From contig CAWKIK010000003.1 in the NCBI GenBank assembly GCA_963849825.1, positions 179,700-243,699 of the forward strand: a DNA stretch of 64,000 nucleotides, in the 5' to 3' direction. Position 1 is the stretch's first letter. Each line of letters opens with the position of its first letter. Both the position numbers and the translations under genes were made by a program. The notes below the pieces were generated by a model that was not told the DNA's origin, made no database searches, and was given only the letters and a program-made list of their open reading frames with translations. This document shows, in pieces, positions 1 to 18,536 of the stretch. This DNA is from an uncultured Gammaproteobacteria bacterium (GTDB lineage Bacteria > Pseudomonadota > Gammaproteobacteria > JASBUN01).

Positions 1-2066
1 GCAGACGCGAACTCCTTTTGCGAAACCAACAACTGGACGAGATTATTGAGAATCAGATAGGAATTCGGTGCCAGAGCATGCGCCTGTTGCAGCCACATTG
101 TCGCATGCGCAACATCGCCGTGGGCGGCCAGCAGCACCCCCGCGTCGTTCCTGGCGAGCGCGTGGGTCGGATCATCGCGAATGATCCTTTCCAATGCACT
201 GACAGCCGCAGCTACATCGCCGCGGTGAATGAGTTCTTCCACTGCCCCGTATTCATTGTTGCGTTCACGCTGGTCAACGTCGCCGTCCAGAAATTCGGCT
301 GCGTCCCGCGCCGCCTCTGCGGCTATGCGTTTCTCATGGGCCGAGACAAGCGAGCCAAATAGCCGTCTACACAACTGCCATACAAGCGTCTCAGGAGCGG
401 ACTCGTCGGAGTCATGATGATGCCGCATCGAAGGGCGAACGAATGCATCAACGGCCCCCGCGGCATCGCCAAGGTCCATTGCAATTGACAACGACTCGCC
501 CACTTTCGCAACCAGGTGACGCCAGTTCCGGAGCAAGCCATCGTAGGTCACGGTAACAACCGTTTCTCCGCAAGTCGCATTCTGGACATCGCTTACGTAG
601 CGCAGCCATAGCTGACCGCACAGCCCATCGGACAGTCCGTTGCGCGCCGACAACGACCGGCACACTTCATGGGGCGCGCGCAGGATATGCACGTAGCGCG
701 GCCTAACCCCAAGCTTGTTGAACACGCACTTCCAGATCGGCAACAAACGGCATAACCGGGGATCTTTAATGGCCCAGCGGTCGCATCCTGCGAACTCCCT
801 GCGCAGCAGGTCGCAGATTCCGTCGATGATTTGCAGGACCTCGTGACTGCGCTTCCAATGCTCCGGAAGCGGAGCCGTACTGTCCCAGCTCAGCCCAAGG
901 GCGGACAACAGACGGTCATTGAAGTCGACAATCTGCTGGTTTTCCCAGAAGCCCGCCGGATTATCTGGCTGCGGACGCATCAGGTTCTTGCCGAGTGCGA
1001 CACCACACAAGTTCAGCACCCGGGTAAGCGCGGACGTACCGCTACGATGCATGCCGAGAACTACCAATGGATCGGTAAGATCTGTGGTCGGCGCGCCACC
1101 CTGCAATCCAACTTCCGCAACGACGAGTGGATGCAACTCAGCCAATTTACTCTTGAACACCCCGTGAACGTCGCTGTCCGGACAGCGGGCGATAAAAGCA
1201 CCGACTGCATCCACGGTGGCGAAGTCGGCGCGCTTCTCCATATGTTCCGTACCGAGGTAATGGATTACGCGCACATCGGCCAGTTCGTGCGAAAAACGTT
1301 CTGCGAATCCAGAACGGTTCGGAAAGTTGTAACGCATTGGCAGCGCCATGATTTCCGCATTGGCACGATACAGACCCAGCGTAAGCGCAAGTTGACACCT
1401 AAAAAACGTTGGACCTACAGCCCGGACGACGTGCGCCATGTCCTGGTATACCGATGGGCCCATTTTTTCGAACAACGCCCGCGGGCCGGCGACGACGCCG
1501 AAGTTGAAGTAGGCCGGCCCATAACGATATTCGGGGTCCGTTTCCATGACCCCCCAACCCGTGTGTTCGTAGTGGAGATTTGGAAGCGGCAGAGCCGCGT
1601 GTCGGAATACGTCGTTCCAACATTCTGCATTTGAGCGTTTGTCGCGTTCGCAAACGAACGGCGATACGTGAGTAATCAGGCCAGCAAAGACGCCTTTGCT
1701 GTAAACAGCGTCAATCAAGTCGTCCAGCGGGGCGGTCACCAGAACATCGGCATCGAGCATAATGACAACGTCGGCGTCGTACCGGTAGCACAGGCGCTCA
1801 ATCGCGGTACCGTAATAGGAGTAGGCGCGAAAACGCTCGCGATCCATCCAACGCCACTCGATCGGATATTTTCTGGACCAAGGCAACTCGGCGTACAAAT
1901 CCCTCGGTTCGCAGTCGTCCCCTACCGTCACGACTAGGCGCGCGCTTGCAGCGCCGCCGCCGAAGTTGCGAAGCGAAGCCGCCAAGTAATGCACCATGGT
2001 GTAGAAATGCTCCGTAGGGCTGATCGGAACGTGGATTTCCACTGAAGGCCCGGCGTCGTTGGTCAT
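1..2066 (-). CDS. Large multidomain protein, partial (C-terminus beyond window start). N-terminal ~330 aa nucleotide-sugar transferase-like region with a DAD/DxD motif (VIMLDADVLV), central sulfotransferase domain, C-terminal TPR-like helical repeats. Candidate flagellin glycan transferase/sulfotransferase.
   Basis: My own translation of the minus strand from ATG 2066 (SD GGAAGGA 6 nt upstream) gives an uninterrupted protein-like frame to position 1. Motifs: LVVLGMHRSGTSALTRVLN (sulfotransferase P-loop-like 5'-PSB), IKDPRLCRLLPIW and ILRAPHEVCRSL (Sulfotransfer_3/Stf0-like KDPR and RDP motifs), C-terminal TPR-like repeats. The ORF track lists only antisense shadow ORFs here (18-362, 831-1634, 1668-1937, all in one register) because the true ORF has no in-window stop. 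Confidence 0.6.
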   Translation of the reverse strand, partial: MTNDAGPSVEIHVPISPTEHFYTMVHYLAASLRNFGGGAASARLVVTVGDDCEPRDLYAELPWSRKYPIEWRWMDRERFRAYSYYGTAIERLCYRYDADVVIMLDADVLVTAPLDDLIDAVYSKGVFAGLITHVSPFVCERDKRSNAECWNDVFRHAALPLPNLHYEHTGWGVMETDPEYRYGPAYFNFGVVAGPRALFEKMGPSVYQDMAHVVRAVGPTFFRCQLALTLGLYRANAEIMALPMRYNFPNRSGFAERFSHELADVRVIHYLGTEHMEKRADFATVDAVGAFIARCPDSDVHGVFKSKLAELHPLVVAEVGLQGGAPTTDLTDPLVVLGMHRSGTSALTRVLNLCGVALGKNLMRPQPDNPAGFWENQQIVDFNDRLLSALGLSWDSTAPLPEHWKRSHEVLQIIDGICDLLRREFAGCDRWAIKDPRLCRLLPIWKCVFNKLGVRPRYVHILRAPHEVCRSLSARNGLSDGLCGQLWLRYVSDVQNATCGETVVTVTYDGLLRNWRHLVAKVGESLSIAMDLGDAAGAVDAFVRPSMRHHHDSDESAPETLVWQLCRRLFGSLVSAHEKRIAAEAARDAAEFLDGDVDQRERNNEYGAVEELIHRGDVAAAVSALERIIRDDPTHALARNDAGVLLAAHGDVAHATMWLQQAHALAPNSYLILNNLVQLLVSQKEFAS

Positions 2067-2133
2067 AATCCTTCCCGTGTGCGCAGAGATGCCGCAAAAT
2101 CGTTCACAAGAACCTGGCGGCACCCCCAGAACA

Positions 2134-2148
2134 GCAAAATTGGTGCCA
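2134..2148 (-). promoter_or_regulatory. Sigma-54 (RpoN) promoter, perfect -24/-12 match (TGGCAC-N5-TTGC) reading toward the large sulfotransferase/TPR gene
   Basis: Minus-strand sequence TGGCACCAATTTTGC; GG and GC elements 12 nt apart. Located ~55-70 nt upstream of ATG 2066. Confidence 0.55.
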
Positions 2149-2283
2149 CGGTAGATAGCGGCCGAAAAACAACAACTTAAAACCGTACCGTGCTCGTTGC
2201 GCGTCAATTTACCGGCGCGACTTCGATGGCGGCGATCGGCGGTTCAGAGCGGGGATGATTCGAGCCGCCGCTTCCGCCCCGCG

Positions 2284-2298
2284 TGGCACGGAAGTTGC
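2284..2298 (+). promoter_or_regulatory. Sigma-54 (RpoN) promoter, perfect TGGCAC-N5-TTGC, reading into the wbqC-like/methyltransferase/aminotransferase operon
   Basis: Plus-strand sequence TGGCACGGAAGTTGC at 2284-2298, ~60 nt upstream of the GTG 2355 start. Confidence 0.55.
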
Positions 2299-2354
2299 TG
2301 CGTGAGCGGAAATGGTCCCGACGACATGATCTCGTCATCAAGCGGAGGCTCGCG

Positions 2355-3023
2355 GTGACAACCATTGCGGTAATGCAGCCCTATTTCGCCCCATACGCAG
2401 GCTATTTTCGTTTATTCGCCGCCGCAGACCTGTTCGTGGTCTACGACTGCGTCCAATTTCCCCGGCGCGGCTGGGTGCACCGCAACCGGTTGGCCGACGC
2501 GCAGCACAATTTACGCTGGCTGACGTTACCCGTTGCGTCGTGCCCTCGCGAGACCGCCATCTTCGAATTGCAGTTCAGAGTCGACGCGGCGCAACGGATG
2601 CGGCACCAGGAACGCCGCTTCCCCTGCCTTTCGCGCGGCCTTCCTGCGGCATTGCAGGCTTCTTTCGCCGATCTCAGCGGCAGTCCCGTCGACTATATCT
2701 GCAGGCTGCTGCGCGTCATTTCGCGTTTGTTGGGAGTCGAGCGCCCGATCATGCGTTCCAGCGAACTGGAGTTGCATCCCGCCCTGCGCGGCGAGGAACG
2801 CGTCCTCGAAATCGTCCGCCGTCTGGGCGCCACTCGTTATATCAACGCTCCCGGGGGCCGCGCGCTGTACTCGGCGCGCGCGTTTGCGCAGTCGGGCGTG
2901 GCATTGAGTTTTCTTTCCGACTACCACGGCGCCAAGACCAGCATCCTGGAACGTCTGGCTATGGAACCCAGCGCGGCCGTGGCCCGGGAAATCCAGCACA
3001 ACCTGGAGCTATGCGCAGCGTGA
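2355..3023 (+). CDS. WbqC-like family protein (sugar-modification cluster protein of unknown biochemical function)
   Basis: MQPYFAPYAGYFRLF...VVYDCVQFPRRGWVHRNRL matches the conserved WbqC N-terminal signature. GTG 2355 has a GGAGG SD; ORF track start 2283 is probably an over-extension. Confidence 0.65.
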   Translation: MTTIAVMQPYFAPYAGYFRLFAAADLFVVYDCVQFPRRGWVHRNRLADAQHNLRWLTLPVASCPRETAIFELQFRVDAAQRMRHQERRFPCLSRGLPAALQASFADLSGSPVDYICRLLRVISRLLGVERPIMRSSELELHPALRGEERVLEIVRRLGATRYINAPGGRALYSARAFAQSGVALSFLSDYHGAKTSILERLAMEPSAAVAREIQHNLELCAA

Positions 3024-3901
3024 AGGCACAAATTCGAACTGAAGCCGAGTCCAGCCCGCAGCAGATCCGAAGAGATCACTACGAACGCAACCGCGCCTAT
3101 TACGACCGCAACGCCGGGCGTTATGAGGCAGCGTCGTGGTATTACTTCAACCGCTACAAGCGAAACGCGGTCCGCGCCGAGCTGAAAAACTGTCTCCGCC
3201 GGGTAAGTTCGCTTTCGCCTCTGCGAATTTTGGAAATCGGTCCGGGAACCGGGTACTTGCTGGACCACCTGCTCGACCAAACCACACGATCTGTGGCTTA
3301 CACGGCACTGGAACATTCAAGCGCCATGGCCGAGACCCTGCGCCAGCGGTTCTCTCACCGTTGCCGCCACTTCGAGGTAATCACGTGCAGCGCCAGCGCC
3401 GAGAATGTACGCTTCGGCGACGGACCATATGACATCATCATGGGCAGCTCGATACTGCATCACCTACCTGATTACGCAGAAGTGATTCCCACACTGGCTG
3501 ACCAACTTTCGCCCGGCGGCGTATTGTATTTCGTTCGCGAACCCATTCATCGGGATGATTGTGCGCCGGCTTCGTTCTTGGCCGACTTTCTTGAACGCCG
3601 CTACGCGGCGATCAACCGCATACTCATGCGACCGGCGATGCAACGACGTTTTTGGCCGCGCAAGGTGAAAGCCGAGGACGCCCGGGACGTCGCGGTGCAT
3701 ATGTTCGGAGACGGCGTATCGATGCGGCCATTCCAGCAGCTCGCGCGCCGACCCGAATTCACGCTTATCGGCCAACGCAAATACAACCGTCGGCTTTCCG
3801 CGGCATTGTGCTATCTCGAAAATGCGTGGCTCAAACGCTTGCGCAAGGATGTGTTCGGCAACACGCTTTATAGCGTCATCGTGCAGCGGCGGCCGTCATG
3901 A
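3010..3901 (+). CDS. Class I SAM-dependent methyltransferase
   Basis: LEIGPGTGYL glycine-rich SAM motif, DIIMGSSILHHL motif II. ATG 3010 overlaps the upstream stop by 14 nt. The ORF-track N-terminal 470 nt (2540-3009) is an alternative frame of the WbqC gene. Confidence 0.7.
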
Positions 3902-5025
3902 ACCGACCGGACCCTACCCCCGCATCCGTCTGTGCCGTGCCCCTAGGTTATGCGCGGCCGTTGCTTCCGGAACCTAGCGCATGGCTTCCATATCTGCATG
4001 CCGCGTACAGTAGCCGTCATTTCACCAACTTTGGGCCTGTGAATGCGCGCTTCGAACGTGCTTTGACGCAGCGATTCGGTCAAGGCCGCGAAGCGGTAAC
4101 GATGTCAAGCGCTACGGCAGGGCTCACCGCGGTGCTACAGGCATTGGAAATCAACGGGCCGGTAGTAGTTCCCTCTTTCACTTTCGCCGCCACAGCCCAA
4201 GCGGTGCTGGCGGCAGGATGCACCCCCGTGTTGTCCGAGTGCAGCCAGGAAACCTGGGAGCTGGATGCCGAACATCTCGGTCGTACGATCCAGCGCAACC
4301 GTGCCGCCGCAGTGATTCATGTACGTACTTTCGGTTTTGGCCACGACCTTGACCCGATTGCGGCGCTTTGCGCGTTCCACGGTGTACCGCTGATCGTGGA
4401 CGCGGCGTCCGCCCTCGGCGGACAGATCGACGGCCCGGCTCATGTGTGCGGACAGGGAACGGTGGAAGTCTGTTCGCTCCATGCGACAAAGGTATTTGCA
4501 ATCGGCGAAGGAGGAGTCGTGTTCGCGCCGCCTTCACTAGCTGCCGCCATCCGCCGGGCGAGCAACTTCGGTCTTGATCGAGGCGACGTCATAAGCGCGG
4601 GCACAAATGGTAAACTGAGCGAATTTCACGCCGCGATTGGGCTCAGTGTGCTCGACCGAATCGACCACGATGTTCGGCATCGACGTCGAATCGCTGCACG
4701 CTTCCATGCGGAGTTGCGCCGCTTGCCCGGTGTCGAACACTGCTGGCCGGCCGCGATCGCACCGTGGCAGGGATATCCGTTGCTTTGCGCGCCGAGGGTG
4801 GATGTCGCGGCACTGATCGCAGAGGCGGGCGCACGGGGCGTGGAACTGCGACGTTATTATTACATGCCCTTGCACCGCACGCGCATGTTCGCTCGGTTCG
4901 CCGATGGAGAACTGCCCGTGACGGATCGGTTGTCGTTCGGCATGGTGTGCTTGCCGGTTTATTCGGATATGACAGAAGCCGAGCAACAGCGGGTACTTGA
5001 TACGCTGTGTCCACTGCTCGGCTGA
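3898..5025 (+). CDS. DegT/DnrJ/EryC1/StrS-family PLP-dependent sugar aminotransferase
   Basis: Family-typical length and motifs (VDAASALGG, SLHATKVFAIGEGGVV with catalytic Lys). ATGA start/stop overlap with the methyltransferase gene. Confidence 0.85.
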   Translation: MNRPDPTPASVCAVPLGYARPLLPEPSAWLPYLHAAYSSRHFTNFGPVNARFERALTQRFGQGREAVTMSSATAGLTAVLQALEINGPVVVPSFTFAATAQAVLAAGCTPVLSECSQETWELDAEHLGRTIQRNRAAAVIHVRTFGFGHDLDPIAALCAFHGVPLIVDAASALGGQIDGPAHVCGQGTVEVCSLHATKVFAIGEGGVVFAPPSLAAAIRRASNFGLDRGDVISAGTNGKLSEFHAAIGLSVLDRIDHDVRHRRRIAARFHAELRRLPGVEHCWPAAIAPWQGYPLLCAPRVDVAALIAEAGARGVELRRYYYMPLHRTRMFARFADGELPVTDRLSFGMVCLPVYSDMTEAEQQRVLDTLCPLLG

Positions 5026-5036
5026 ACCGGCATTGC

Positions 5037-5732
5037 CTACACCGTGATCGCCAATTCCCGCTGCGCCCGTTGCCAATCCTCCGGAACGCCGATATCGATG
5101 AAATAGGCATCCGACCGATGCACCAAGGGATGAATACTGGTTATATTCGGAGCCACCAGATCCTGCTCGAAGGAAAATGCCTGGTCATGCCCGTAATCGT
5201 CCAGTAGCCAACGCGCCGCACAGTAGCAGCCGCCATTTATCCAACCGGGCACCCCGGCCTGCTTTTCGGCGAAACCCTGCACCACCCCGAAACGATCGAA
5301 AAGCACCTGGCCATAACGAGCGCAATCCGGCACCCGTTTCACCGCCATGGACAAGCGTGCCGCGACACTGCGGTGGGCGGTGTACATGGCATCGACGTCC
5401 ACGGGAAACAACGTGTCGCCGTTGACCACCAACGCATGGTCGTCTTCCAGTAACTGGAATGCCTGGCGAATGGCGCCTCCGGTCCCCAGTGGGTGCTCTT
5501 CGACGGAATAGCGTAGCGTGATGCCGTGGGCGCGGTTTCCGAACCGCGCACGGATCATTTCCCACTGATAGGACACGGCCAGCACCGATTCTGTCACGTC
5601 TTGACTGCCAAGCCAGGCGAGTACGTGGTCCAAAAAAGGTCGCCCCGCGACGGGAGCGAGAGGCTTGGGAACATCAGGAACCGTTTGCCGCAGCCGGGTT
5701 CCCAATCCTCCGGCCAGTATGATCGCTTGCAT
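5037..5732 (-). CDS. Sugar-1-phosphate nucleotidyltransferase, D-glycero-D-manno-heptose-1-phosphate guanylyltransferase (HddC)-like
   Basis: N-terminal MQAIILAGGLGTRL nucleotidyltransferase signature, ~230 aa. In operon with gmhA, GHMP kinase and a GDP-sugar 4,6-dehydratase. Confidence 0.8.
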   Translation of the reverse strand: MQAIILAGGLGTRLRQTVPDVPKPLAPVAGRPFLDHVLAWLGSQDVTESVLAVSYQWEMIRARFGNRAHGITLRYSVEEHPLGTGGAIRQAFQLLEDDHALVVNGDTLFPVDVDAMYTAHRSVAARLSMAVKRVPDCARYGQVLFDRFGVVQGFAEKQAGVPGWINGGCYCAARWLLDDYGHDQAFSFEQDLVAPNITSIHPLVHRSDAYFIDIGVPEDWQRAQRELAITV

Positions 5733-6330
5733 GTCTGTTCTCCTTGCCGAACATTGCCTCTTCCATCAAGCCGCACAGCACATGGCCCAGCACGATATGA
5801 CATTCCTGGATACGCGCCGTCTCCTGCGCCGGAACGCGCACGCAAAAGTCACATAGAGCCCGCATGCGGCCGCCATCGGCGCCGGTCAAGCCCACGGTGC
5901 GAATATCGCGAAATCGGGCCGCTTCCAAGGCTTCGAGAATATTGGGTGAGTTGCCCGAGGTGCTCAGTGACAGCAGCACGTCGCCCGGCCGGCCATGGGC
6001 TTCGACCTGCCGGGCGAAAACCTTTTCGTAGCCGTAATCATTACCGACCGCCGTTAGAATGGACGTATCGGTAGTCAGCGCGATGCCGGCCAGTCCCGGC
6101 CGATCGAAAGCAAAACGGCTGACCAATTCCGCCGCCAGATGTTGGGCATCGGCGGCACTGCCGCCGTTACCGGCAAACAAGATCCGATTGCCCCGGCGCA
6201 AGGCTTCGATGCATTCTTGCGCAACCCGTTTGACCAAGCCGATCAAGGCGCCGTCATCCAGCATCCGCGTTTTTACCAATATGGAATCGGCGATCTGGGC
6301 CCGAATGCTGTCTTCCATCACACGTTCCAT
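5674..6330 (-). CDS. gmhA: SIS-domain sedoheptulose-7-phosphate isomerase (GmhA)
   Basis: IEALRRGNRILFAGNGGSAADAQHLAAEL, typical GmhA SIS motif. 3' end overlaps the hddC-like start by 59 nt. Confidence 0.8.
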   Translation of the reverse strand: MERVMEDSIRAQIADSILVKTRMLDDGALIGLVKRVAQECIEALRRGNRILFAGNGGSAADAQHLAAELVSRFAFDRPGLAGIALTTDTSILTAVGNDYGYEKVFARQVEAHGRPGDVLLSLSTSGNSPNILEALEAARFRDIRTVGLTGADGGRMRALCDFCVRVPAQETARIQECHIVLGHVLCGLMEEAMFGKENRHASDHTGRRIGNPAAANGS

Positions 6331-7433
6331 CCCTGCGCCCCCCCTTTGGTGAAATGGAACCGATAGGGACTGCCGCCGAAGGGTTTTAGCGCTTCGGTGA
6401 CTTCGAGCTTCCGGGTCGGCTCGACAAACAGCATCATGAATCCGCCACCCCCAGCACCCGATAATTTCGCCGCTAGCGCGCCGGCGCCCATTGCGGTTTC
6501 GTAAATGTATTCGACCAGCGGATTGGATACCGAGCTCGACGTATGCTTCTTTGCCTGCCAGGACTCGGCCAGAATGTCCGCCATGCGCCGCACGTCGGAC
6601 TTGAGCAGCGATTCTTTCATGGCCTGGGCCGCTTCCTTGACCGAATGCATGGCGGTTAGGAAATCGCTGTTGCCGGTGGATGCAATCTTCGACTGGTCAT
6701 CGATGATTTTCGCCGATTCCCTGGATAGACCGGTGAAGAACAGCATCATGTGGCACTCGAGTTCATTGACGATTTCGTCTCGGATGCGTAGCGGATTGAC
6801 GATCACGCGGTCATCGCTGTGAAACTCGATGAAATTGAAACCTCCGAAGGTGGCGGCGTATTGATCCTGCTTGCCCCCTGCAAGAGCGCAGTCGTGACGT
6901 TCGATGCGGTAGGCGAGTTGGGCCAGATCGTACTCCCCCAGCGGCAGCTGCAGCAGCTGCTGATAGGCGCGCAATATCGCTACCACCATGGTCGAGGAGC
7001 TGCCCAGACCGCTGCCCGGAGGCGCATCGGAGTAAGTGGTCACTTGCACCGGCAACGGCTCGCCATCGTTGAACATGGCCACCACGCTATTGTAGATCGC
7101 CTTGTGCAAACGCAACTCGCCTTCCACGGCAAGCTCGGGCACAGCTTCGCTTTGCCATTGCTTGCCGAGGTCTTTGGCGTCGAATCCGACCTGGGCGTCC
7201 GCGCGCAGCTCGATGGTGCAATATGCGTGCATGGAAATGGTGGCATTGAGCACGCAGCCGCCATAGGTTTCGCTGTACGGCGACACGTCGGTGCCGCCGC
7301 CTGCGAGTCCGAGACGCAGCGGCGCCCGGGCGCGCACTTTGAGCGCCGGTTCAGCGCGCTTTCGGATTTCTACGCCCGGCATATCGGCGTCACTCGCCAA
7401 AGCGGTTTTGGGAATGCGGACGATCGATGCCAT
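6318..7433 (-). CDS. GHMP-family sugar kinase, D-glycero-D-manno-heptose-7-phosphate kinase (HddA)-like
   Basis: PPGSGLGSSSTMVVA GHMP ATP-binding motif, ~370 aa; 13-nt overlap with gmhA. Confidence 0.8.
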   Translation of the reverse strand: MASIVRIPKTALASDADMPGVEIRKRAEPALKVRARAPLRLGLAGGGTDVSPYSETYGGCVLNATISMHAYCTIELRADAQVGFDAKDLGKQWQSEAVPELAVEGELRLHKAIYNSVVAMFNDGEPLPVQVTTYSDAPPGSGLGSSSTMVVAILRAYQQLLQLPLGEYDLAQLAYRIERHDCALAGGKQDQYAATFGGFNFIEFHSDDRVIVNPLRIRDEIVNELECHMMLFFTGLSRESAKIIDDQSKIASTGNSDFLTAMHSVKEAAQAMKESLLKSDVRRMADILAESWQAKKHTSSSVSNPLVEYIYETAMGAGALAAKLSGAGGGGFMMLFVEPTRKLEVTEALKPFGGSPYRFHFTKGGAQGWNV

Positions 7434-7464
7434 GGCGTCACCTTTTCGTTAACCAGCGGCAATA

Positions 7465-8478
7465 TCACCGGGACCAGAACCGGCTGCCTCTACCGACGCG
7501 GGCGCGCCAGTAGTCGAGCAAATCATTCATGGTGGTTTCGAAGCCGATCTCCGGCTGCCAGCCGGTATGTTGCGTGAATTTGCTCGTGTCGGGCACTTGC
7601 AGATCGGCATCGATGGGCCGCAAACGTTCGGGATCGGTCTCCACCCGAATGTCCTTGCGCGTCGAGCAGCTCAGCAAATAGTCCAGCATTTCGCGCACGC
7701 TGCAGGTATAGGCCCCGCCGATGTTGTAATACTGACCGGGTGTGGGATTCACGGTCACCAGCAGGTAATACGCGCGCACAGCATCGCGCACATCGGCCCA
7801 GGTGCGCAGGGAGTCGAGATTGCCGGTCTTGACCACCGGCGGAATCAGATCCGCTTCGATCATGGCGATCTGCTTTGCGAACGTGGACTCGGCGAACACG
7901 TCGCCGCGACGCGGTCCGGTGTGGGTAAACATGCGCGTAGTCATCACCTTCATGCCATAGGCTTCGCCATAGAAGCGGCCAATCAGGTCGGTGCCGACTT
8001 TGGAAATGGCATAAGGGGACGCCGGGTGAAAGGTGACCTCCTCGTGAATAGGCAGCTTTTCGCGCGGCACCCTGCCAAACACTTCCGAAGACGCACATAC
8101 GTGCACCACCGGGTCCAGTTCGCTCAAACGAATTGCTTCCAACAGATTGGACGTGCCGGTGACATTGGTCTGTAAGGTATCCGCCGGTGAATCGAAACTG
8201 GTTTTTGGGTAACTCTGGGCGGCGAGATGAAACACATAGTCCGGCCGTGACAGTTTGAGCACATTCAACAGCGAACCGAAATCGTTCAGATCGCCATAAT
8301 GAAAAAACACACGCTCGCGGGCGTTCACCCGCTCCAGTAAATGCTCGACGTTGTCCATGGGGCTGCGCCAGCGACACATGCCGTGCACTTCCCAATCGGT
8401 GTTGACCAGCAGATAGTCGCTCAAATGCGAACCCACCATGCCCGTGACACCTGTGATCAAGGCGCGTTTAGAAGTCAT
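7465..8478 (-). CDS. GDP-sugar 4,6-dehydratase (Gmd / GDP-manno-heptose 4,6-dehydratase DmhA family)
   Basis: N-terminus MTSKRALITGVTGMVGSHLSDYLL...EVHGMCRWRS is near-identical in pattern to Gmd (ALITGVTGQDGSYL...EVHGI.RR.S). Start taken at internal ATG 8478; ORF-track start 8568 over-extends. Confidence 0.85.
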   Translation of the reverse strand: MTSKRALITGVTGMVGSHLSDYLLVNTDWEVHGMCRWRSPMDNVEHLLERVNARERVFFHYGDLNDFGSLLNVLKLSRPDYVFHLAAQSYPKTSFDSPADTLQTNVTGTSNLLEAIRLSELDPVVHVCASSEVFGRVPREKLPIHEEVTFHPASPYAISKVGTDLIGRFYGEAYGMKVMTTRMFTHTGPRRGDVFAESTFAKQIAMIEADLIPPVVKTGNLDSLRTWADVRDAVRAYYLLVTVNPTPGQYYNIGGAYTCSVREMLDYLLSCSTRKDIRVETDPERLRPIDADLQVPDTSKFTQHTGWQPEIGFETTMNDLLDYWRARVGRGSRFWSR

Positions 8479-9346
8479 GGACCTGTTGGCCTCCGTTTGC
8501 ACCGATCCCGAATTCCAGGCGCATGGCTTCTTGCAAACTGCGTGGTCGACGTCCGAGCAGCGCAGCAAGGTAGCGCGAATCCATATCGATCACTCGGGGC
8601 CGGGCTCGGTAAAAGTCTTCTCCTGGATCGCGCACCGTAAACCGCAAGGCTGGCGCACATAGAGCTTGAAAGGACTTGGCGATGTCGGCGCGCGAGTAAA
8701 GATTTTCTCCGCCGACATTGACCCAAGGCGCGTCGATCGTGAGCCAGCGTTCGAAGACCGCAAACACGGCATCGACTACGTCATCGATATGCACCACGCG
8801 TCGGTCCAGTGGAACAAACACGTCGGCCTCTTCGCCCCGCTCGGCGCATTGCGCCAAAAGGGAGGTAAAGCGATCGTCCCGAGAAAACACGTAAGACAAG
8901 CGCAATGCCTTGAACCGCTCGCGACGTTGAAACTGCGCTTCAACCTCCCGTTTCATGTGCGCGTACTCGCCCACCGGCTGCGGCGATGTCCATTCGTCGC
9001 ACACCTCCGAGCGTTCGCCGTACACCGTATCGCTAGATGCGAACAACACCCGCGCGCCGCGTGCCAACGCCCCTTCGATGAACGCCATGGTGCCGTCCAC
9101 ATTCACCGAGCGGCAGTGCTGAGGGTCTTTACGACACTGATCCGGGGCCGAAATCGCGGCCAGCAACACGACGCGGGAATCATCGTCCAGTTGTGCATAA
9201 TCGAACGCCTCAGGGCGTGCCAGATCCAAAAGCAGGTCGCCGTCCCTGGGGTGGGAAGACGTAAATCTGACGGCGATTTGCCGGTGGGCGGCCGCGGCGG
9301 CAAGCCGGCGCGCAATGCAACCGTTCTTGCCGATGATCACCAACAT
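8468..9346 (-). CDS. NAD(P)-dependent sugar-nucleotide reductase/epimerase (extended SDR; Rmd/DmhB/RmlD-like)
   Basis: N-terminal MLVIIGKNGCIARRL Rossmann motif, ~290 aa. First gene of the heptose operon directly downstream of flgL. Confidence 0.7.
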   Translation of the reverse strand: MLVIIGKNGCIARRLAAAAAHRQIAVRFTSSHPRDGDLLLDLARPEAFDYAQLDDDSRVVLLAAISAPDQCRKDPQHCRSVNVDGTMAFIEGALARGARVLFASSDTVYGERSEVCDEWTSPQPVGEYAHMKREVEAQFQRRERFKALRLSYVFSRDDRFTSLLAQCAERGEEADVFVPLDRRVVHIDDVVDAVFAVFERWLTIDAPWVNVGGENLYSRADIAKSFQALCAPALRFTVRDPGEDFYRARPRVIDMDSRYLAALLGRRPRSLQEAMRLEFGIGANGGQQVHDF

Positions 9347-9515: not shown

Positions 9516-10409
9516 TTAGAGAAAGTTGAACAGCGACAAACCCTGCACTTTCACGTAACTCTGTTGCGCTGCCTGCAAGCCGGTCATCTGCAGATTCAAG
9601 TCGCTGATCGCCTTTGCGTAGTCCAAGTCCTGCAGAGACGAGCGTGTCTGTTCGAACTGCAGTATCGCGGAATCGTTGACGCCGCGCTGCGTGTCGATTG
9701 CGTTGAGCCGCGAGCCTATGCGCGATTGCGCATTGACGATATTGTTCATGGCGGCATCGATATCGTTCAGGCGTGTCGCGTCCGGCGCGTTGCTATCGAG
9801 TTCGCCGGCCATGTCGTAGAGCATCTTGAACACATCGTCGGCGGTGCCCGGAATGTTCATGAATACGCCGTCGCCGGCATCGCCCACTGCCACATGGCGG
9901 GTAGGTCCGACCTGCAGGGTGCGCTGCCCCTGGTCGCCGTTGTAGGCGTAGGTCCCGGCGCCGTTATCGGTAATCGGCTGCGTGCCGGTCTTGAAACCAG
10001 AGAACAAATACTCGCCGTTGGCGTCCTTGGTATTGGCCAAGCTCACCATCGTATCGAGCACTTGGTGCACTTCGGTGGCGGCGGCTTTGCGCGAATCGGC
10101 GCTTTGCGAACCGTTGGCCGCTTGCACCATTAGCTCCCGGGCCCGCTGCAGCAAATCGACCATGCTGCCCAAAGTGCCTTCCTCCACTTGCAGGCGGCTC
10201 TCGGCAGCGTCTGCGTTGCGTTGAAATTGCTTCGTGGTATCGATGACTTTGGCCAGATCGAGCACACTTGCGGCCGCGGCCGGATCGTCCGATGGCGATT
10301 GAATTCGACGCCCCGTGGAGAGCTGCATTTGCGTGCGCGCGGTGCGACTTTGCTGTTCGATGATGGCGTTGATGGCCTGCTGTTGCACGAGATTGGTGGA
10401 CACGCGCAT
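9516..10409 (-). CDS. flgL: Flagellar hook-associated protein 3 FlgL
   Basis: MRVSTNLVQQQAINAI N-terminus and flagellin-like N/C helical termini. Position after flgK. Confidence 0.9.
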   Translation of the reverse strand: MRVSTNLVQQQAINAIIEQQSRTARTQMQLSTGRRIQSPSDDPAAAASVLDLAKVIDTTKQFQRNADAAESRLQVEEGTLGSMVDLLQRARELMVQAANGSQSADSRKAAATEVHQVLDTMVSLANTKDANGEYLFSGFKTGTQPITDNGAGTYAYNGDQGQRTLQVGPTRHVAVGDAGDGVFMNIPGTADDVFKMLYDMAGELDSNAPDATRLNDIDAAMNNIVNAQSRIGSRLNAIDTQRGVNDSAILQFEQTRSSLQDLDYAKAISDLNLQMTGLQAAQQSYVKVQGLSLFNFL

Positions 10410-10412: not shown

Positions 10413-12338
10413 TTACCTCCCCACCGCAGCGAGCACGGATTGGAACAATGTGTTGGCAACGCTGATGGCCTGGGCCGATGCTTGATAGGCTTGCTGGAAT
10501 CGCACCAGATTGGCGGCCTCTTCGTCCAGATTGACGCCCGACACCGCCTCCCGCGCCGCTACCGCCTGATCCAGCAACTGCGACTGCGCTTTGCCGGCAA
10601 GCTCCGCCTGACGAGTGCGGGAACCCACATCTCCGACCATGCCGCCATAGGCGTCCACCAGGGTCGTGCGCCCGCTGTCGAGCGCGCCTTGGTCCGGCAC
10701 TCCGGCAAGCAATACCGCATTGCGGTTATCACCGACGCCGCCCGTGTTGGCCGCCACGGTGAATACATCGCCGGCAGCCGGAGTGCCTTTGAGCTGCATG
10801 GTCCAACCGTTGTACGTGATGTCGGCACCCGAGGTGTAACTCACGCCGCTCGCCAACGTGCTGCCGGTGGTCACGTCGTACACATCGAATGTGGTCGCGG
10901 GACTGTTGAATGTGATGGTGACCGTATCCTTGAGGTTCGCATTGACCGGTGACGGCGGATTCACACTGCCCGCGCTGATCGAGCCGGTACCGGTGTTGGC
11001 GCCAGCTGCGCTGGTCGCAATCGGTGCCGCGGCGGCGATATCGTTGGTGTGACTGATGGCCATGCCGATGCTTTGCGCGCCGGCGCGGGTCGGGCGCACC
11101 AGGAAACGATCGCCATCGTTCATGGTGCCTGCAACGCTGAACTGAAGACCGTCCACGGTCACTGCGCTACCGGGAAACCCGGCGGCGCCGATATCGGTAG
11201 TGCTGCCGTCGGTGAGACGGGTGAGCGTGTAATTGCTGCCGCTACGCGAAATCTGATAATTGCTGGTAGTGAGCTTGCTGATATCGGTGATTGTCGCCGA
11301 CACCGCCCCACTGCCTGTATTGTTGCTGTTGGTCAATACTTCCGGAGTTGCGATTTTGAAGAAATCGCCGCCGATGTTGCCGTTGAGATCCTGCCCGAGT
11401 TTGTGTTGATCATTGAATGTGGCACCGAGGGCGATGGCCACCCGGCCCAGATCGTTCATCGCCGGATCGAGAATGTTGTCGCGAAAATCCAGCGTACCGC
11501 CCAGTTCGCCCCCGTTGAGTTGCGAAGTAATGTTGGTGCTGTTACCGCTGGAATCGATATACGCAACCTGCTTGCGGCTCGGATCGTAGGGATCATTGAC
11601 GGCTGCCAGCTTCTGGGCCGAGCTGCCGACCACCAGGCTTTGGCCGTTGCCGATGAAGACATTCACCGAACCGTCGTCCTGCTTGACGGTCGAAAGCGAT
11701 ACCTTTTCCGCCAATTCGTTGAGCAACTGGTCGCGGCGGTCGAGCAGATCGCCCGACACTTGACCGTTCGGCCCCTTGGGTGAGTTGATGATGTCACTAT
11801 TGACGTCGGCGATCGACTGGGCCAGGGAATTGATGTCGCGCACCTGGCCGTCGATGCGGGTGTTGACGCCGTTGCGCAAATCGTCGAGGCGACTGAACAA
11901 ATCATTGAACCGCGACGTCATGGACTGGCCTTCGCTCAGCACCACTTGGCGCGCCGCGGTCGAGGTCGGGTCCGAAGCCAGGTCCTGCACGGCGTTGAAG
12001 AAATTCTGCATCACGGGGGTGATGCCGGTTTCCGGATCGGCCAGCATATTGTCGATCTGCACCGCGAGATCATAGGTAGCGTTGCTCTGGCTCGACAGCG
12101 AAGTCGTGCTGCGCACCTGCGAACCCAGGAATTCGTCGTACACGCGGCGCACGCTTTGCACATCGACACCGCTGCCGACGTAATTGCCGCCCAGATACTG
12201 CGGCGAGGCGGCACTGAGTTCCACACGCTGGCGGCTGTAGCCAGGCGTATTGACGTTGGTGATGTTGTGGCTGGTGGTATTGAGCGCGCGCTGATAGGCG
12301 AGCAGTCCCGAGACCGCCGTGCCCAGCAAGTCAGCCAT
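10413..12338 (-). CDS. flgK: Flagellar hook-associated protein 1 FlgK
   Basis: MADLLGTAVSGLLAYQRALNTTSHNITNVNTPGYSRQ. Start at ATG 12338 with GGGAGG SD; ORF-track start 12374 over-extends. Confidence 0.9.
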   Translation of the reverse strand: MADLLGTAVSGLLAYQRALNTTSHNITNVNTPGYSRQRVELSAASPQYLGGNYVGSGVDVQSVRRVYDEFLGSQVRSTTSLSSQSNATYDLAVQIDNMLADPETGITPVMQNFFNAVQDLASDPTSTAARQVVLSEGQSMTSRFNDLFSRLDDLRNGVNTRIDGQVRDINSLAQSIADVNSDIINSPKGPNGQVSGDLLDRRDQLLNELAEKVSLSTVKQDDGSVNVFIGNGQSLVVGSSAQKLAAVNDPYDPSRKQVAYIDSSGNSTNITSQLNGGELGGTLDFRDNILDPAMNDLGRVAIALGATFNDQHKLGQDLNGNIGGDFFKIATPEVLTNSNNTGSGAVSATITDISKLTTSNYQISRSGSNYTLTRLTDGSTTDIGAAGFPGSAVTVDGLQFSVAGTMNDGDRFLVRPTRAGAQSIGMAISHTNDIAAAAPIATSAAGANTGTGSISAGSVNPPSPVNANLKDTVTITFNSPATTFDVYDVTTGSTLASGVSYTSGADITYNGWTMQLKGTPAAGDVFTVAANTGGVGDNRNAVLLAGVPDQGALDSGRTTLVDAYGGMVGDVGSRTRQAELAGKAQSQLLDQAVAAREAVSGVNLDEEAANLVRFQQAYQASAQAISVANTLFQSVLAAVGR

Positions 12339-12419
12339 GGCGCACCTCCCCTGCTCCGACAGCGTCGGACGCACCAGCGCCGCGCACAGCGCGGCTCAAC
12401 CCTTTAACGGCCGACGGCA

Positions 12420-13391
12420 TCATAGATTGAGCGCTCCGAGCGCGTCCCGAAGCGTATCGCCGTCGAGAATATTTTTGATTTTGCTGGCATAACCGGGGTC
12501 CGTCGCATAGCCTGCCCGCTGCAATCCGTCGACAAAGCCATGGGCGTCGCTGGCGCCGACGGCGTTCTGGTAACGCGGGTTGGTTTTCAGAAACCGCACA
12601 TAGTCGTCGAAGCTCTCTCCCAGCGATGGATAGGCGCGGAAAGCCGCGCGTTCCTGGGCCATGACGCCGCCGCGGAACTCCAAGGTCTGTGCCGCCACCT
12701 TGTCGCCATTCCAACTGTCGTCGGCTTTGATCCCGAACAGATTGTTGGAGCTGACGCCGTCGGCGCGCGGCAGAATGTGCTGTCCCCAGCCGGTCTCCAG
12801 CGCCGCCTGGGCAACCAAAACTTCCGGCGCGATCCCCAGCGCGGCCGCGGCGGTCTTGGCGTGATCCCAGATGGCTTGTACGAACTGCAGCGGCTGGTCG
12901 AACCACCGCTTCGCGTCGGCGTCGCTTGCGCTTGCCGCGTTGGCCTTCGGGTCTGCCAGCGCCACCAGCGGTTGCGTGCTGTCGACACCCAACAGCGACT
13001 TGGCGGCCGCGTCGGTCGTACGCAGCAAGGTCGCCGCCAAACTGCCGGTGACATTCTCTTTTGCAGATGCATCGGAGTTGCCTGCGTCGGGCAGATTGCT
13101 GCCCAGTTGCCGCACCATGGCGTCGGCGATGCCAAGGCCACCCTTCTCCGCCAGACTCAGCGATATCTGGCTGTCGAACATGTCGCGGTACATGCCGCTT
13201 TGTTCACTGTCGAACAAGCCGTCGCCCATGCTCGCTTCGCGCATGCTTTTGAGCACCATTTGCATGAAGATGGCTTCGAATTGCTTGGCTACCGCCTGCA
13301 GGCTGCCTTTCGGATCCTGTTTCGCGTCACGCCGCAGCGCGGCCAGACCGTTGAAGTCGGTGTAGACAGCAGTTTGTGGGTCGTTCGCCAT
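12420..13391 (-). CDS. flgJ: Flagellar rod assembly protein / peptidoglycan hydrolase FlgJ
   Basis: N-terminal rod-binding motif AVAKQFEAIFMQMVLKSMREA plus C-terminal glucosaminidase motif AQAALETGWGQ...NNLFGIKA. The ORF-track N-terminal 105 aa is read-through of a tandem repeat and is not FlgJ. Start placed at ATG 13391 (or 13409). Confidence 0.85.
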   Translation of the reverse strand: MANDPQTAVYTDFNGLAALRRDAKQDPKGSLQAVAKQFEAIFMQMVLKSMREASMGDGLFDSEQSGMYRDMFDSQISLSLAEKGGLGIADAMVRQLGSNLPDAGNSDASAKENVTGSLAATLLRTTDAAAKSLLGVDSTQPLVALADPKANAASASDADAKRWFDQPLQFVQAIWDHAKTAAAALGIAPEVLVAQAALETGWGQHILPRADGVSSNNLFGIKADDSWNGDKVAAQTLEFRGGVMAQERAAFRAYPSLGESFDDYVRFLKTNPRYQNAVGASDAHGFVDGLQRAGYATDPGYASKIKNILDGDTLRDALGALNL

Positions 13392-13427
13392 ATCGCTTCC
13401 CGTTATCATTGCGCCTTGTCGGTGCAG

Positions 13428-13700
13428 GCCGCGTCGGGTCCGCGCTGCGCGCTTGACCCGACCTACGTGTTTGATCCGGCTTGCGTGCCGATCCTTGGCT
13501 TCGCCGCGTCGGGTCCGCGTTGCGCGCTTGACCCGACCTACGTGTTTGATCCGGCTTGCGTGCCGGTCCTTGGCTTCGCCGCGTCGGGTCCGCGCTGCGC
13601 GCTTGATCCGACCTACGCGTTTGATCCGGCTTGCGTGCCGGTCCTTGGCTTCGCCGCGTCGGGTCCGCGCGGCGCGCTTGACCCGACCTACATGTTTGAC
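13428..13700. repeat. Tandem repeat, 75-bp unit x ~3.6 copies, each unit containing an 8-bp-stem hairpin (GTCGGGTC...GACCCGAC). Lies in the flgI-flgJ intercistronic spacer.
   Basis: Units start at 13428, 13503, 13578 and 13653 with >90% identity. The unit length (25 codons) keeps an open frame, which caused the spurious FlgJ N-terminal extension. Confidence 0.9.
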
Positions 13701-13734
13701 CCGCCTCCGGGCCTGCAGGGCTGGACGCAACCGT

Positions 13735-14880
13735 TCAAATCACAATCAGTTCCGCGCGCAACGCACCCGCTTCTTTCAGTGCTTCGAGAATCGCCACCAG
13801 ATCACCGGGAGCTGCGCCGACCCGATTCACCGCGCGTACGATTTCATCCAGTTCCACACCCGGGTTGAACAGGAACATGCGTTTGGCTTCCTGAGTGATC
13901 TGGACGTCCGATTGCGGCACTACAGCGGTTTGGCCGCCGGACAACGGCGCCGGTTGGCTGACCACAGGACGCTCGGTAATGGTGACAGTGAGACTGCCGT
14001 GGCTGACTGCGGCCGGTTGCACGCGCACGTGACTGCCGATCACCACAGTACCCGTTCGCGAATTGACCACGATGCGGGCCGGCGCGTCGCCCGGTTCGAC
14101 GTCGATATTTTCGAGCAGGGAAACAAATGCCACGCGCTGGCCGGGATCGCGGGGCGCGCTCACTTGCACCGATGTCGCATCCAAGGGTCGTGCACTGCCG
14201 GCGCCGACGGTGCGATTGATTGCAGTCGAGACGCGGTTGGCAGTGGTGAAATCCGAGTCGTTGAGATTGAGAACAATGTAATCCCCGCGATCGAACGGAT
14301 TTTCCACTGCACGTTCCACGGTAGCGCCGTTCGGGATCCGCCCGGCGCTGGGAATGTTGACCGTGACTTTCGAGCCGTCATTACCTGAAGCGCCGAAGCC
14401 GCCGACGATCAGGTTGCCCTGGGCGATGGCATAGATGCGGCCGTCGGCACCTTTGAGCGGCGACATCAACAAACTGCCGCCGCGCAGGCTCTTGGCGTTG
14501 CCCAACGAGGAAACCGTGACATCGATGGTCTGGCCCTGCTTGGCGAAGGGCGGCAATTCGGCGTGGATGGCGACCGCAGCGACGTTCTTCAACTGCGGTT
14601 TGACGTTGTCTGGCACCACAATGCCGTAGCGCGCCAACATGGCCTTCAAGCTCTGCACCGTGAACGGGGTCTGGGAAGTCTGGTCGCCGGAACCGTCCAA
14701 ACCGACCACCAAACCGTATCCCACCAGTTGATTGACCCGCACGCCGGCTACCGACGCCAGGTCTTTGACCCGCTCGCCGTAGGACAAGGTGCTGTAGAAC
14801 AACGAAGCGCACATCAGCACCGCGCTTATCAACGTAGCGCTCAGCAGTAGCAGACCCCGGCCTTCGACTCGTTCAGACAT
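13735..14880 (-). CDS. flgI: Flagellar P-ring protein FlgI
   Basis: Signal peptide then [31 protein letters not shown]. Start at ATG 14880 with GAGGGGG SD; ORF-track start 15045 is an over-extension into flgH. Confidence 0.9.
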
Positions 14881-14890
14881 GGCGACCCCC

Positions 14891-15601
14891 TCAGAAAGGC
14901 CAGATGGGACTATTGAAGAAGCGCGACAACCAGCCCTGAGCACCGGAATCGGCGACCGCCCCGCGCCCGCTGTAGGTGATACGCGCATCCGCCACGCGTG
15001 TGGACAGCACCGTATTGTCGGAACTGATGTCCACCGAACGCACAATGCCGCTCACGCGCACGTATTCCTCACCCTGATTCAGCAACACCCGCTTTTGTCC
15101 CCGCACCAGCAAATTCCCGTTGGGATAGACCTCGGCCACCGTGACCGTCACCGTACCGGTCAAGCTGTTGCTCTGGCTGCTGTCGCCGCTGCCGGCGAAA
15201 TCCCGGGTCATGCCGATTTCGTTATTGAAGATTCCTTTGCCTTTCATGGTGCCGAACACCGTGGGCACGTCGGCGGCGACGCTGCTCTCCTTGCTAGTAT
15301 TGGTGGTGGCGGACTTCGATGCGTTGGTCGATTCGGTCAACACGATGGTGATCAAATCGCCGACATTGTGGGCCTTGACGTCCTCGAACAGCAGTCGCGC
15401 CGAACCTTCCTGGAAGATCGAACCGCTGGCGGCCCGTTCCTTGTCATAAGAGCGGGGAATCACCGGCGCATACTCGGCGCTGTCCTTTTCCGGCAAGGCG
15501 GAACAACCGGACAGCAGCATGAACGCCAACAGCGCCAGCGCTGTGGTCAGCAGCATGCACAAACCCCGGTTGCTCATAATCTTTGGAACCTCGCGCGTCA
15601 T
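14891..15601 (-). CDS. flgH: Flagellar L-ring lipoprotein FlgH
   Basis: Lipobox LLSGCS and a conserved FlgH body. The start may be the internal ATG at 15577. Confidence 0.88.
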
Positions 15602-15656
15602 AAATCTGACTACTATCCCGTAGCTATGCCAGAACCGTGCCAGAGACTTGAAAACA

Positions 15657-16442: not shown

Positions 16443-16495
16443 GGTCGTTGTCCTTTGGTTCTGATGTTCGGTTGCGTTGTGTGCGGCGTGCGCGC

Positions 16496-17236: not shown

Positions 17237-17255
17237 GATGCGGCCTCGTTATCCG

Positions 17256-18512: not shown

Positions 18513-18536
18513 GGCTGTGTTCTCCTAAAAGGACTC

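What the first reader, a model, noticed from the sequence alone, without database searches (positions are those of the whole stretch)
1..2066. Unannotated giant GT-like / sulfotransferase / TPR fusion protein hidden behind antisense shadow ORFs
The ORF track shows only three same-register plus-strand ORFs (18-362, 831-1634, 1668-1937). The minus strand translates without stops from ATG 2066 (good SD) to the window edge, giving a >688-aa protein. It has a DAD-motif transferase-like N-domain and a clear sulfotransferase core (HRSGTS P-loop-like PAPS 5'-phosphosulfate-binding motif, KDPR and RDP-like motifs). Its C-terminus consists of TPR repeats, which in FlmG/FgtA-type enzymes bind flagellin. 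A sulfotransferase fused to a TPR substrate-recognition module beside a flagellin glycosylation cluster suggests sulfated flagellin glycans. Sulfation of a flagellin glycan is rarely documented.
Basis: seen in the sequence. Interest (0 to 1): 0.7.

Follow-up and report, generated by a model that had tools for sequence, protein, structure and literature searches.

The report
Five-module flagellar-island glycosyltransferase with sulfotransferase domain
The open frame is real and is the first half of a 1,381-residue enzyme that joins three sugar-transferring domains, a sulfate-transferring domain and a short protein-binding repeat, encoded in the variable sugar island beside the flagellar gene flgL, so it probably builds a sulfated sugar chain on the flagellar filament protein, something not yet shown in bacteria.

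The parts
1..2066 (-). First 688 codons of a 1,381-codon gene (product P0258). The remaining 693 codons (end of the TPRs, GT2, GT-B) lie beyond the left edge of the window.
   Evidence: Open frame. 100% identity to residues 1-688 of P0258. Pfam on the full protein.
1107..2045 (-). Module 1, residues 8-320: GT-A fold, GT8-like glycosyltransferase domain of a family of about 200 proteins without a Pfam model. DxD at 1746-1754 (D105-A-D107); invariant N188, Q225, H269.
387..1070 (-). Module 2, residues 333-560: sulfotransferase-fold domain. P-loop-like HRSGTS at 1032-1049, KDPR at 756-767, R463-x-P-x5-S471 at 654-680.
3..239 (-). Module 3, residues 610-688 of about 610-713: tetratricopeptide repeats (about three in the full protein), preceded by helical linker residues 561-609 (240-386).
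   Evidence: TPR_14/TPR_19/TPR_16. Designed CTPR proteins E 1.3e-7. All-helical model, pLDDT 51-62 in the TPR stretch.
2064..2076 (-). Start codon ATG (2066-2064) with GGGAAGGA (2076-2069) immediately upstream.
   Evidence: Sequence. The same start is used in the library product P0258.
2156..2180 (-). Possible sigma-28 (FliA)-type promoter TTAAGTTG-N-GCCGCTA, about 90 nt upstream of the ATG. Weak lead only.
   Evidence: 2 mismatches to TCAAGT-N12-GCCGATA, but 1.08 such matches are expected per window. The only match to a pattern derived from this site itself (biased).
2373..3023 (+). WbqC-like gene, first gene of the operon divergent from the big gene.
   Evidence: PF08889 E 7.7e-37. GC3 frame analysis.
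3011..3901 (+). SAM-dependent methyltransferase. The true start is probably ATG 3011, not the long ORF start at 2540.
3898..5025 (+). DegT/DesI/PseC-type sugar aminotransferase. A homolog lies within a few kb of the GT8-like gene in 32 of 35 other loci.
5037..9346 (-). Sugar-nucleotide genes: HddC-like guanylyltransferase (5037-5732), GmhA-like isomerase (5674-6330), HddA-like heptose kinase (6318-7433), GDP-mannose-4,6-dehydratase-like (7465-8568), RmlD-like reductase (8468-9346). Together they suggest a GDP-(6-deoxy)heptose-type pathway.
   Evidence: Pfam. NCBIfam best hits, all below the equivalog cut-offs.
9516..10409 (-). flgL, last gene of the flgB-L cluster. Synteny with the sister genome ends at 9511, so the island begins here.
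   Evidence: TIGR02550 318.7 bits vs cut-off 127.2. blastn synteny.

Best explanation
The ORF is the N-terminal half of a 1,381-aa cytoplasmic, five-module enzyme. The modules are a retaining-type GT-A (GT8-like) glycosyltransferase, a PAPS-type sulfotransferase, about three TPRs, a GT2 glycosyltransferase and a GT-B (GT1/GT4-type) glycosyltransferase. It is the only glycosyltransferase gene visible in a strain-variable sugar island that begins directly after flgL. The island also supplies activated sugars: a GDP-heptose/6-deoxyheptose-like route, plus an aminotransferase, a WbqC-like protein and a methyltransferase. Proposed mechanism: before export through the flagellar type III system, the three GT modules add up to three sugars in sequence to Ser/Thr of flagellin. 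The sulfotransferase module transfers sulfate from PAPS to one of these sugars. The TPR stretch acts as a docking or scaffolding element. Shown: the gene, its full length, the five folds or families, retention of the catalytic motifs, the position of the island, and recurrence of the sulfotransferase module in the same flagellar position elsewhere. Inferred: flagellin as acceptor, sulfate as the group transferred, the order of the reactions and the role of the TPRs.
Against: No flagellin gene is in the window, and the sequence to the left of the gene could not be obtained. Most relatives are not flagellar. None of the 35 loci with the GT8-like domain has flg genes. Only 2 of 80 loci with the ST domain do. 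A Thermomonas ST-GT2-GT1 protein sits in a cluster with ABC-transporter genes (weak Wzt_C match) and glycosyltransferases. The Sulfotransfer_3 score of this protein is below Pfam's cut-off. The sigma-28-like site is not statistically significant. The TPR stretch is short, modelled with low confidence, and is of a kind common in generic GT2 proteins. No biochemical data exist for either the GT8-like family or the ST-GT2 family.
Confidence: 0.55

Rival explanations
1. It is a cell-surface polysaccharide (O-antigen, capsule or EPS) synthase of the ST-GT2-GT1 type that happens to lie next to the flagellar cluster. It builds a sulfated, heptose-containing polymer on a lipid carrier, and flagellin is not its substrate.
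For: Most relatives are in non-flagellar glycan clusters. Sources name them 'O-antigen biosynthesis protein' or 'GT2 family glycosyltransferase'. The GDP-heptose/6-deoxyheptose pathway genes best match capsule-type HddA/HddC.
Against: The island starts where synteny breaks, just past flgL. ST-family genes recur directly after flgL in two distant lineages and in the sister genome's post-flgL island. No transporter, polymerase or priming transferase is seen in the visible island.
Confidence: 0.22
2. The central domain is not an active sulfotransferase. It is a P-loop kinase-like or non-catalytic nucleotide-binding module (for example phosphorylating the glycan, as in phospho-modified flagellin glycans, or regulating the GT modules).
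Against: The ten best fold matches are all sulfotransferases, 4-5 Z units above the kinases. 18 of 20 family members match PF13469 and 8 of 20 match PF00685. Both PAPS-type motifs, with the spacing typical of sulfotransferases, are invariant.
Confidence: 0.12
3. The sulfotransferase module acts on protein rather than sugar: tyrosine O-sulfation of flagellin or another flagellar protein, TPST/RaxST-like, with the TPRs presenting the substrate.
Against: The margin over carbohydrate, lipid and polyketide sulfotransferases is small (OLS-ST 15.2, Stf9 15.0, Stf1 14.0). The domain is nearly always fused to or next to glycosyltransferases and sugar-modifying genes.
Confidence: 0.05
4. The long open frame is a chance or antisense artefact, and the plus-strand ORFs are the real genes.
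For: Three plus-strand ORFs share one register.
Against: P(open by chance) is about 2e-11. Homologs reach E 1e-92. Two confident AF2 domain models. Family-invariant residues are all kept.
Confidence: 0.01

Closest known systems
PA1091 (FgtA) of Pseudomonas aeruginosa PAO1, b-type flagellin glycosylation cluster
   Same: One polypeptide in the flagellin glycosylation cluster combines a GT2 glycosyltransferase with a second transferase that decorates the glycan with an anionic group. It is accompanied by a methyltransferase gene (PMC11833859).
   Different: The second activity there is a phosphotransferase (CD0244 homolog) that adds phospho-N,N-dimethylthreonine. Here the second module is a sulfotransferase-fold domain, and there are two further GT modules (GT8-like, GT-B) and TPRs. 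No sequence comparison with PA1091 could be run.
FlmG of Caulobacter crescentus and Brevundimonas (TPR + GT-B flagellin glycosyltransferase)
   Same: TPRs and a GT-B domain occur in one flagellin-modifying protein. In FlmG the TPR domain binds flagellin and the GT-B domain determines the donor (bioRxiv 10.1101/2022.03.25.485807).
   Different: FlmG has two domains, with an N-terminal TPR domain, and transfers pseudaminic or legionaminic acid. Here about three TPRs lie between a sulfotransferase and a GT2 domain, the island makes heptose-type rather than nonulosonic sugars, and homology to FlmG was not tested.
ST-GT2(-GT1) multi-domain 'glycosyltransferase / O-antigen biosynthesis protein' family (about 1,100 aa; e.g. 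P0075 of Thermomonas sp. XSG)
   Same: Residues about 330-1000 are collinear with these proteins: ST domain about 45% identical, GT2 34-48% identical. Seven of them also align across the TPR stretch.
   Different: These proteins lack the N-terminal GT8-like module. Most are in non-flagellar clusters, e.g. a cluster with ABC-transporter genes in Thermomonas. Their C-terminal GT-B parts did not align with ours by BLAST. The papers I searched turned up no functional study of the family.
GT8-type retaining GT-A glycosyltransferases (glycogenin, LgtC, GlyE, WbbM GT8 domain)
   Different: 13-19% identity. The Pfam GT8 model is not matched significantly (E 0.08, 12.9 bits vs 24.3; 9 of 53 members give faint hits). 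The family has its own invariant set: W63, G129, P136, W150, P184, Y186, N188, Q225.
Sulfotransfer_3-type sulfotransferases (human TPST1/2, mycobacterial Stf1/Stf9, olefin-synthase ST domain)
   Different: 13-18% identity. The score is below the Pfam cut-off for this protein. The family-specific invariant motifs GFWE and KDPR..R..P have no assigned role. The acceptor is unknown.

Membership tests
Glycosyltransferase family 8 (Pfam PF01501 / GT8-type GT-A) | GT-A Rossmann-like fold closest to GT8 structures | tested here: met
Glycosyltransferase family 8 (Pfam PF01501 / GT8-type GT-A) | D-x-D metal/nucleotide-sugar motif and a downstream metal-binding His | tested here: inconclusive
   D105-A-D107 and H269 are invariant in 53 sequences. 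Their structural equivalence to the LgtC/glycogenin residues was not checked residue by residue.
Glycosyltransferase family 8 (Pfam PF01501 / GT8-type GT-A) | Significant match to the family profile | tested here: not met
   PF01501 E 0.08, 12.9 bits vs cut-off 24.3. Only 9 of 53 relatives match, best E 0.015. The profile finds no GT8 among PDB sequences.
PAPS-dependent sulfotransferases (Pfam PF13469 Sulfotransfer_3) | Match to the family profile above the gathering score | tested here: not met
   21.7 bits (688-aa fragment) and 25.5 bits (core alone) vs 27, though the full profile length 1-213/216 is covered. 18 of 20 close relatives match at E<=0.01, best 1.3e-8.
PAPS-dependent sulfotransferases (Pfam PF13469 Sulfotransfer_3) | Sulfotransferase fold, distinguishable from P-loop kinases | tested here: met
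PAPS-dependent sulfotransferases (Pfam PF13469 Sulfotransfer_3) | 5'-phosphosulfate-binding loop and 3'-phosphate-binding R...S motif | tested here: met
   G338-x-H-R-S-G-T-S345 and R463-x-P-x5-S471 are invariant in 41 and 20 sequences, and are kept in the flagellar-island relatives. Assigning them to the PAPS sites rests on my knowledge of TPST/SULT structures.
PAPS-dependent sulfotransferases (Pfam PF13469 Sulfotransfer_3) | PAPS-dependent sulfate transfer | not testable with these tools
   Needs an enzyme assay or MS.
Tetratricopeptide repeats | 34-residue helix-turn-helix repeats matching TPR profiles | tested here: met
   TPR_14 26.1 vs 23.5 bits. TPR_19 646-706. Designed CTPR E 1.3e-7. 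Helical hairpins in the model.
FlmG-type flagellin glycosyltransferase | Two-domain architecture: N-terminal TPR domain plus C-terminal GT-B | tested here: not met
   The TPRs are internal (about 610-713), between the ST and GT2 modules. The protein has five modules.
FlmG-type flagellin glycosyltransferase | TPR domain binds flagellin | not testable with these tools
   Needs a two-hybrid or pull-down assay. No flagellin gene of this organism was available.
Flagellin glycosylation island (Pseudomonas type, next to flgL) | Sugar-biosynthesis and transferase genes inserted directly after flgL, with content that varies between related genomes | tested here: met
   Gene order. Synteny of 88-91% ends at 9511. 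The sister island has different genes.
Flagellin glycosylation island (Pseudomonas type, next to flgL) | Flagellin gene at the far end of the island; flagellin is glycosylated | not testable with these tools
   The gene runs off the window. The 12 kb of sister island seen has no flagellin gene.
ST-GT2(-GT1) multi-domain glycan synthases | Collinear N-terminal sulfotransferase-like domain, GT2 domain and C-terminal GT-B domain in one protein | tested here: met
   68 of 381 fetched proteins align over both ST and GT2, 7 of them also over the TPR stretch. Pfam domains of relatives and of P0258. The GT-B parts did not align by BLAST.

The most novel reading that the evidence does not exclude
Bacteria of several lineages decorate flagellin with a sulfated glycan. 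The sulfotransferase module that recurs in the flgL-adjacent island (directly after flgL in two metagenome contigs; within the island in this window and in a sister genome) would be the enzyme responsible. In this organism the acceptor could be an amino- or 6-deoxy-heptose made by the island. Because no N-acyltransferase is visible beside the DegT aminotransferase, sulfation of the amino group (a sulfamate, as in heparan N-sulfation) is not excluded. This would also give a first function to a GT8-like family that has no Pfam model and is tightly linked to DegT.
Probability: 0.3. Interest if true: 0.75.

Novelty: new variant of a known kind. Interest (0 to 1): 0.55.

Why it matters
Flagellin glycans shape motility, filament stability, phage and immune recognition. 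Their known anionic decorations are phosphate-linked groups and acidic sugars. I found no report of a sulfated bacterial flagellin glycan in the searchable library. A sulfotransferase module that recurs in the flgL-adjacent island in unrelated lineages gives a concrete, testable prediction: a 79.957-Da increment on flagellin glycopeptides. It also gives handles for testing it, namely the catalytic motifs and separable modules. In addition, the work defines a rare, uncharacterised GT-A family (about 200 proteins, almost all from uncultured soil and sediment bacteria) that is genomically coupled to a sugar aminotransferase. Finally, the L061 operon and this fusion form a Rosetta-stone link that ties the GT8-like, sulfotransferase and GT2 activities into one pathway.

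Tried and rejected
Completing the gene from DNA failed. Exact look-ups of the neighbours DegT and HddC found nothing. The HddA look-up returned only a 2.5-kb Logan contig. P0258 itself is not on record in the encoding index. Protein-pattern scans of genome contigs and metagenome contigs found no close relative. The full protein was finally recovered from the representative library, but not its flanking DNA, so what lies to the left of the gene (fliC?) remains unknown.

The profile search of PDB sequences with the untrimmed ST alignment was swamped by the coiled-coil tails of the relatives and is uninformative. The trimmed profile gave only weak sulfotransferase hits. The N-domain profile found no PDB sequence relative.

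The sigma-28 promoter idea does not stand on its own. The site matches a pattern that I derived from the site itself. The independent Pseudomonas-type consensus matches at background frequency. The enteric consensus instead picks out two sites near flagellar gene starts: just upstream of the cheV-like gene and just after flgA.

Literature searches for sulfated flagellin glycans and for sulfotransferases in flagellin islands found nothing relevant. The domain architecture of Burkholderia FlmQ (BCAL0111) could not be verified from the accessible paper, so it is not used as a comparison.

The organism's taxon was not determined. The sister contigs are ENA metagenome-assembly contigs.

The idea that the TPRs are a C-terminal substrate-recognition domain was rejected once the full length was known.
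Full report
OBSERVATION. Translating the minus strand from ATG 2066 to base 1 gives 688 codons without a stop. It is the only stop-free frame of the six; the others have 7-25 stops. From base composition, the chance of such an open frame is about 2e-11. GGGAAGGA lies directly upstream of the ATG. The coding status is beyond doubt. Homologs reach E 1e-92, and two parts fold into confident models. An exhaustive search of 1.84 billion representatives returned a 1,381-aa protein, P0258, that is 100% identical over residues 1-688 and uses the same start. So the window holds only the first half of the gene, and the gene has been called in a public collection.

ANATOMY OF THE FULL PROTEIN.

(3) Residues about 610-713. 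About three TPRs, modelled as helical hairpins at low confidence.

(4) Residues 739-990. GT2 (PF00535 E 7.5e-31).

(5) Residues about 1020-1381. GT-B, with Glycos_transf_1 at 1179-1343 (E 2.1e-12).

RELATIVES AND MODULE LINKAGE. Residues about 330-1000 are collinear with a large family of proteins of about 1,100 aa that carry an N-terminal sulfotransferase-like domain followed by GT2 and often GT1 domains. Sources name them only 'glycosyltransferase' or 'O-antigen biosynthesis protein'. Seven of them also align across the TPR stretch. About a fifth of the best GT2-domain relatives carry TPR domains.

The GT8-like module occurs alone (172 of the 381 fetched proteins). It is also fused to the sulfotransferase module in either order (11 proteins), or to methyltransferase or radical-SAM domains. 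None of the other 381 fetched proteins covers all five modules. In the 1.84-billion representative library, only P0258 matched the 688-aa query along its whole length.

In 30 loci found among 185,579 species genomes, all from uncultured MAGs of many phyla, and in five further loci, a DegT-type aminotransferase lies within a few kb of the GT8-like gene in 32 of 35 cases. In the closest relatives it is 44-50% identical to the window's DegT. A sulfotransferase-core relative is present in 20 of 35.

In metagenome locus L061, DegT, GT8-like, ST and a GT2 protein are four adjacent genes with overlapping or abutting ends, in the same order as the modules of the fusion. This is Rosetta-stone evidence that these activities belong to one pathway.

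GENOMIC CONTEXT. The window carries flgA, a cheV-like gene, cheR and flgD-E-F-G-H-I-J-K-L. flgL passes its equivalog cut-off.

Between flgL (9516-10409) and our gene lie the following. Their NCBIfam hits are below the equivalog cut-offs but mutually consistent:
- an RmlD-like reductase;
- a GDP-mannose-4,6-dehydratase-like enzyme;
- HddA-, GmhA- and HddC-like genes, best matching the GDP-D-glycero-D-manno-heptose pathway;
- on the other strand, an operon of a WbqC-like gene (2373-3023, PF08889 E 7.7e-37), a methyltransferase (3011-3901) and DegT (3898-5025).

No transporter, polymerase or lipid-carrier priming gene is visible there. GC3 of our gene (0.66) and of DegT (0.63) is lower than that of the core genes FlgK, FlgE and RelA (0.76-0.77), with HddA at 0.73.

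A sister genome (967,912-bp contig) is 88-91% identical in DNA through the flg genes. The similarity stops at window position 9511, directly after flgL. At that site the sister has different genes: a 617-aa TPR protein, a dehydratase-like gene, a GT4+GT2 protein, a 513-aa protein, a GT2 protein and a large TPR protein. The 513-aa protein has an N-terminal relative of our sulfotransferase core (36% identity, with GMHRSGTS and RNPAAVAASLTRR kept) and C-terminal TPRs. The GT2 protein's GT2 domain is 36% identical to ours.

Among 80 metagenome loci that carry the sulfotransferase family, two (L079, L108; FlgK only 31-33% identical to ours) have flgK-flgL followed directly, on the same strand, by a sulfotransferase-family gene. 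L108's gene continues through a coiled coil into a segment with a weak match to our GT2 domain (E 7.6e-4). L039 has a 1,397-aa ST-GT2 protein next to an HddA homolog of 52% identity.

So the sulfotransferase module recurs in the flgL-adjacent island in distant lineages, although most family members are elsewhere. One example is a Thermomonas cluster with ABC-transporter genes (weak Wzt_C match) and glycosyltransferases.

MECHANISM (inferred). The protein is most likely a cytoplasmic assembly line for a flagellin O-glycan. Three glycosyltransferase modules of different classes (retaining GT-A, GT2, GT-B) would add sugars supplied by the island. The sulfotransferase module would add sulfate from PAPS. 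The TPRs would provide docking or scaffolding. Two precedents support this: PA1091 of P. aeruginosa, a GT2 flagellin glycosyltransferase fused to a glycan-decorating phosphotransferase (PMC11833859), and FlmG, whose TPR domain binds flagellin (bioRxiv 10.1101/2022.03.25.485807).

The weak points are these:
- No flagellin gene was seen.
- The left flank is unknown.
- Most relatives have a non-flagellar context.
- The Pfam score for the sulfotransferase is below threshold.
- Neither family has any biochemistry.

A sigma-28-like site 90 nt upstream of the start (2156-2180) fits a late-flagellar promoter but is not statistically significant. Better matches to the enteric consensus lie just upstream of the cheV-like gene and just after flgA.

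RIVALS. The rivals considered are: a surface-polysaccharide synthase that merely neighbours the flg cluster (0.22); a kinase-like or non-catalytic central domain (0.12); direct tyrosine sulfation of a protein, suggested by the TPST top hits but with a small margin over other sulfotransferases (0.05); and a spurious ORF (about 0.01).

NOVELTY AND VERDICT. The kinds of parts are all known, as is the principle of multifunctional enzymes in flagellin islands. Three things are new: the five-module combination (a singleton in the libraries searched), the GT8-like family that has no profile, and the recurrent sulfotransferase module in the flgL-adjacent island, which predicts sulfated flagellin glycans. 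My searches of the paper library found no report of such glycans in bacteria. I rate this a new variant of a known kind. Interest is 0.55. Confidence in the domain-level description is above 0.9, and confidence in the full functional reading is 0.55.

Noticed in passing
window 22328-22354 (-) and 23251-23277 (+): Two matches to the enteric sigma-28 consensus TAAAGTTT-N11-GCCGATAA (3 mismatches each; 0.14 expected). One lies just upstream of the cheV-like gene start (22306). The other lies just after flgA, where I would expect flgM. These are likely late-flagellar promoters.
   Followed up: partly
window 2283-3901 (+): The longest-ORF list hides the real gene structure. A WbqC-like gene (2373-3023) and a methyltransferase starting at ATG 3011 overlap by 13 nt. 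The 453-aa ORF from 2540 is an over-extension in the methyltransferase frame.
   Followed up: yes
L037 15952-17878 (= L038 7019-8945): In the sister genome, flgK is called as two genes (332 + 307 aa), whereas the window has one 653-aa FlgK that is 93-96% identical to both pieces. This is a frameshift, a pseudogene or an assembly error in the sister.
   Followed up: no
L061 7829-12873: Operon DegT, GT8-like (348 aa), sulfotransferase-like (347 aa) and GT2 protein (621 aa) with overlapping or abutting gene ends on a 255-kb metagenome contig. This is the unfused counterpart of the window's fusion protein.
   Followed up: partly
L038 10001-21854: The sister genome's island after flgL holds three TPR proteins (617, 513 and more than 580 aa of a 1,328-aa product) interleaved with GT2/GT4 proteins. 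The 513-aa one is a sulfotransferase-like + TPR protein for which the precomputed Pfam hits list only TPR families.
   Followed up: partly
window 1-5025 vs 10413-27605: GC3 of the big gene (0.66) and of DegT (0.63) is clearly below that of FlgK, FlgE and RelA (0.76-0.77). This is consistent with horizontal acquisition of the island.
   Followed up: no
L039 948-5701: A 1,397-aa ST-GT2 protein (the best metagenome match to our sulfotransferase core, 45% identity) is followed by an HddA-like heptose kinase 52% identical to the window's. The link between this family and heptose genes therefore recurs outside the window.
   Followed up: no
window 47152-49518 (+): A 788-aa protein with multiple HEAT repeats fused to a C-terminal eukaryotic-type Ser/Thr protein kinase domain. 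Unrelated to the finding.
   Followed up: no
window 23921-25024 (-): A 367-aa ORF between the flagellar genes and relA/spoT has no Pfam match at E<=1e-5.
   Followed up: no
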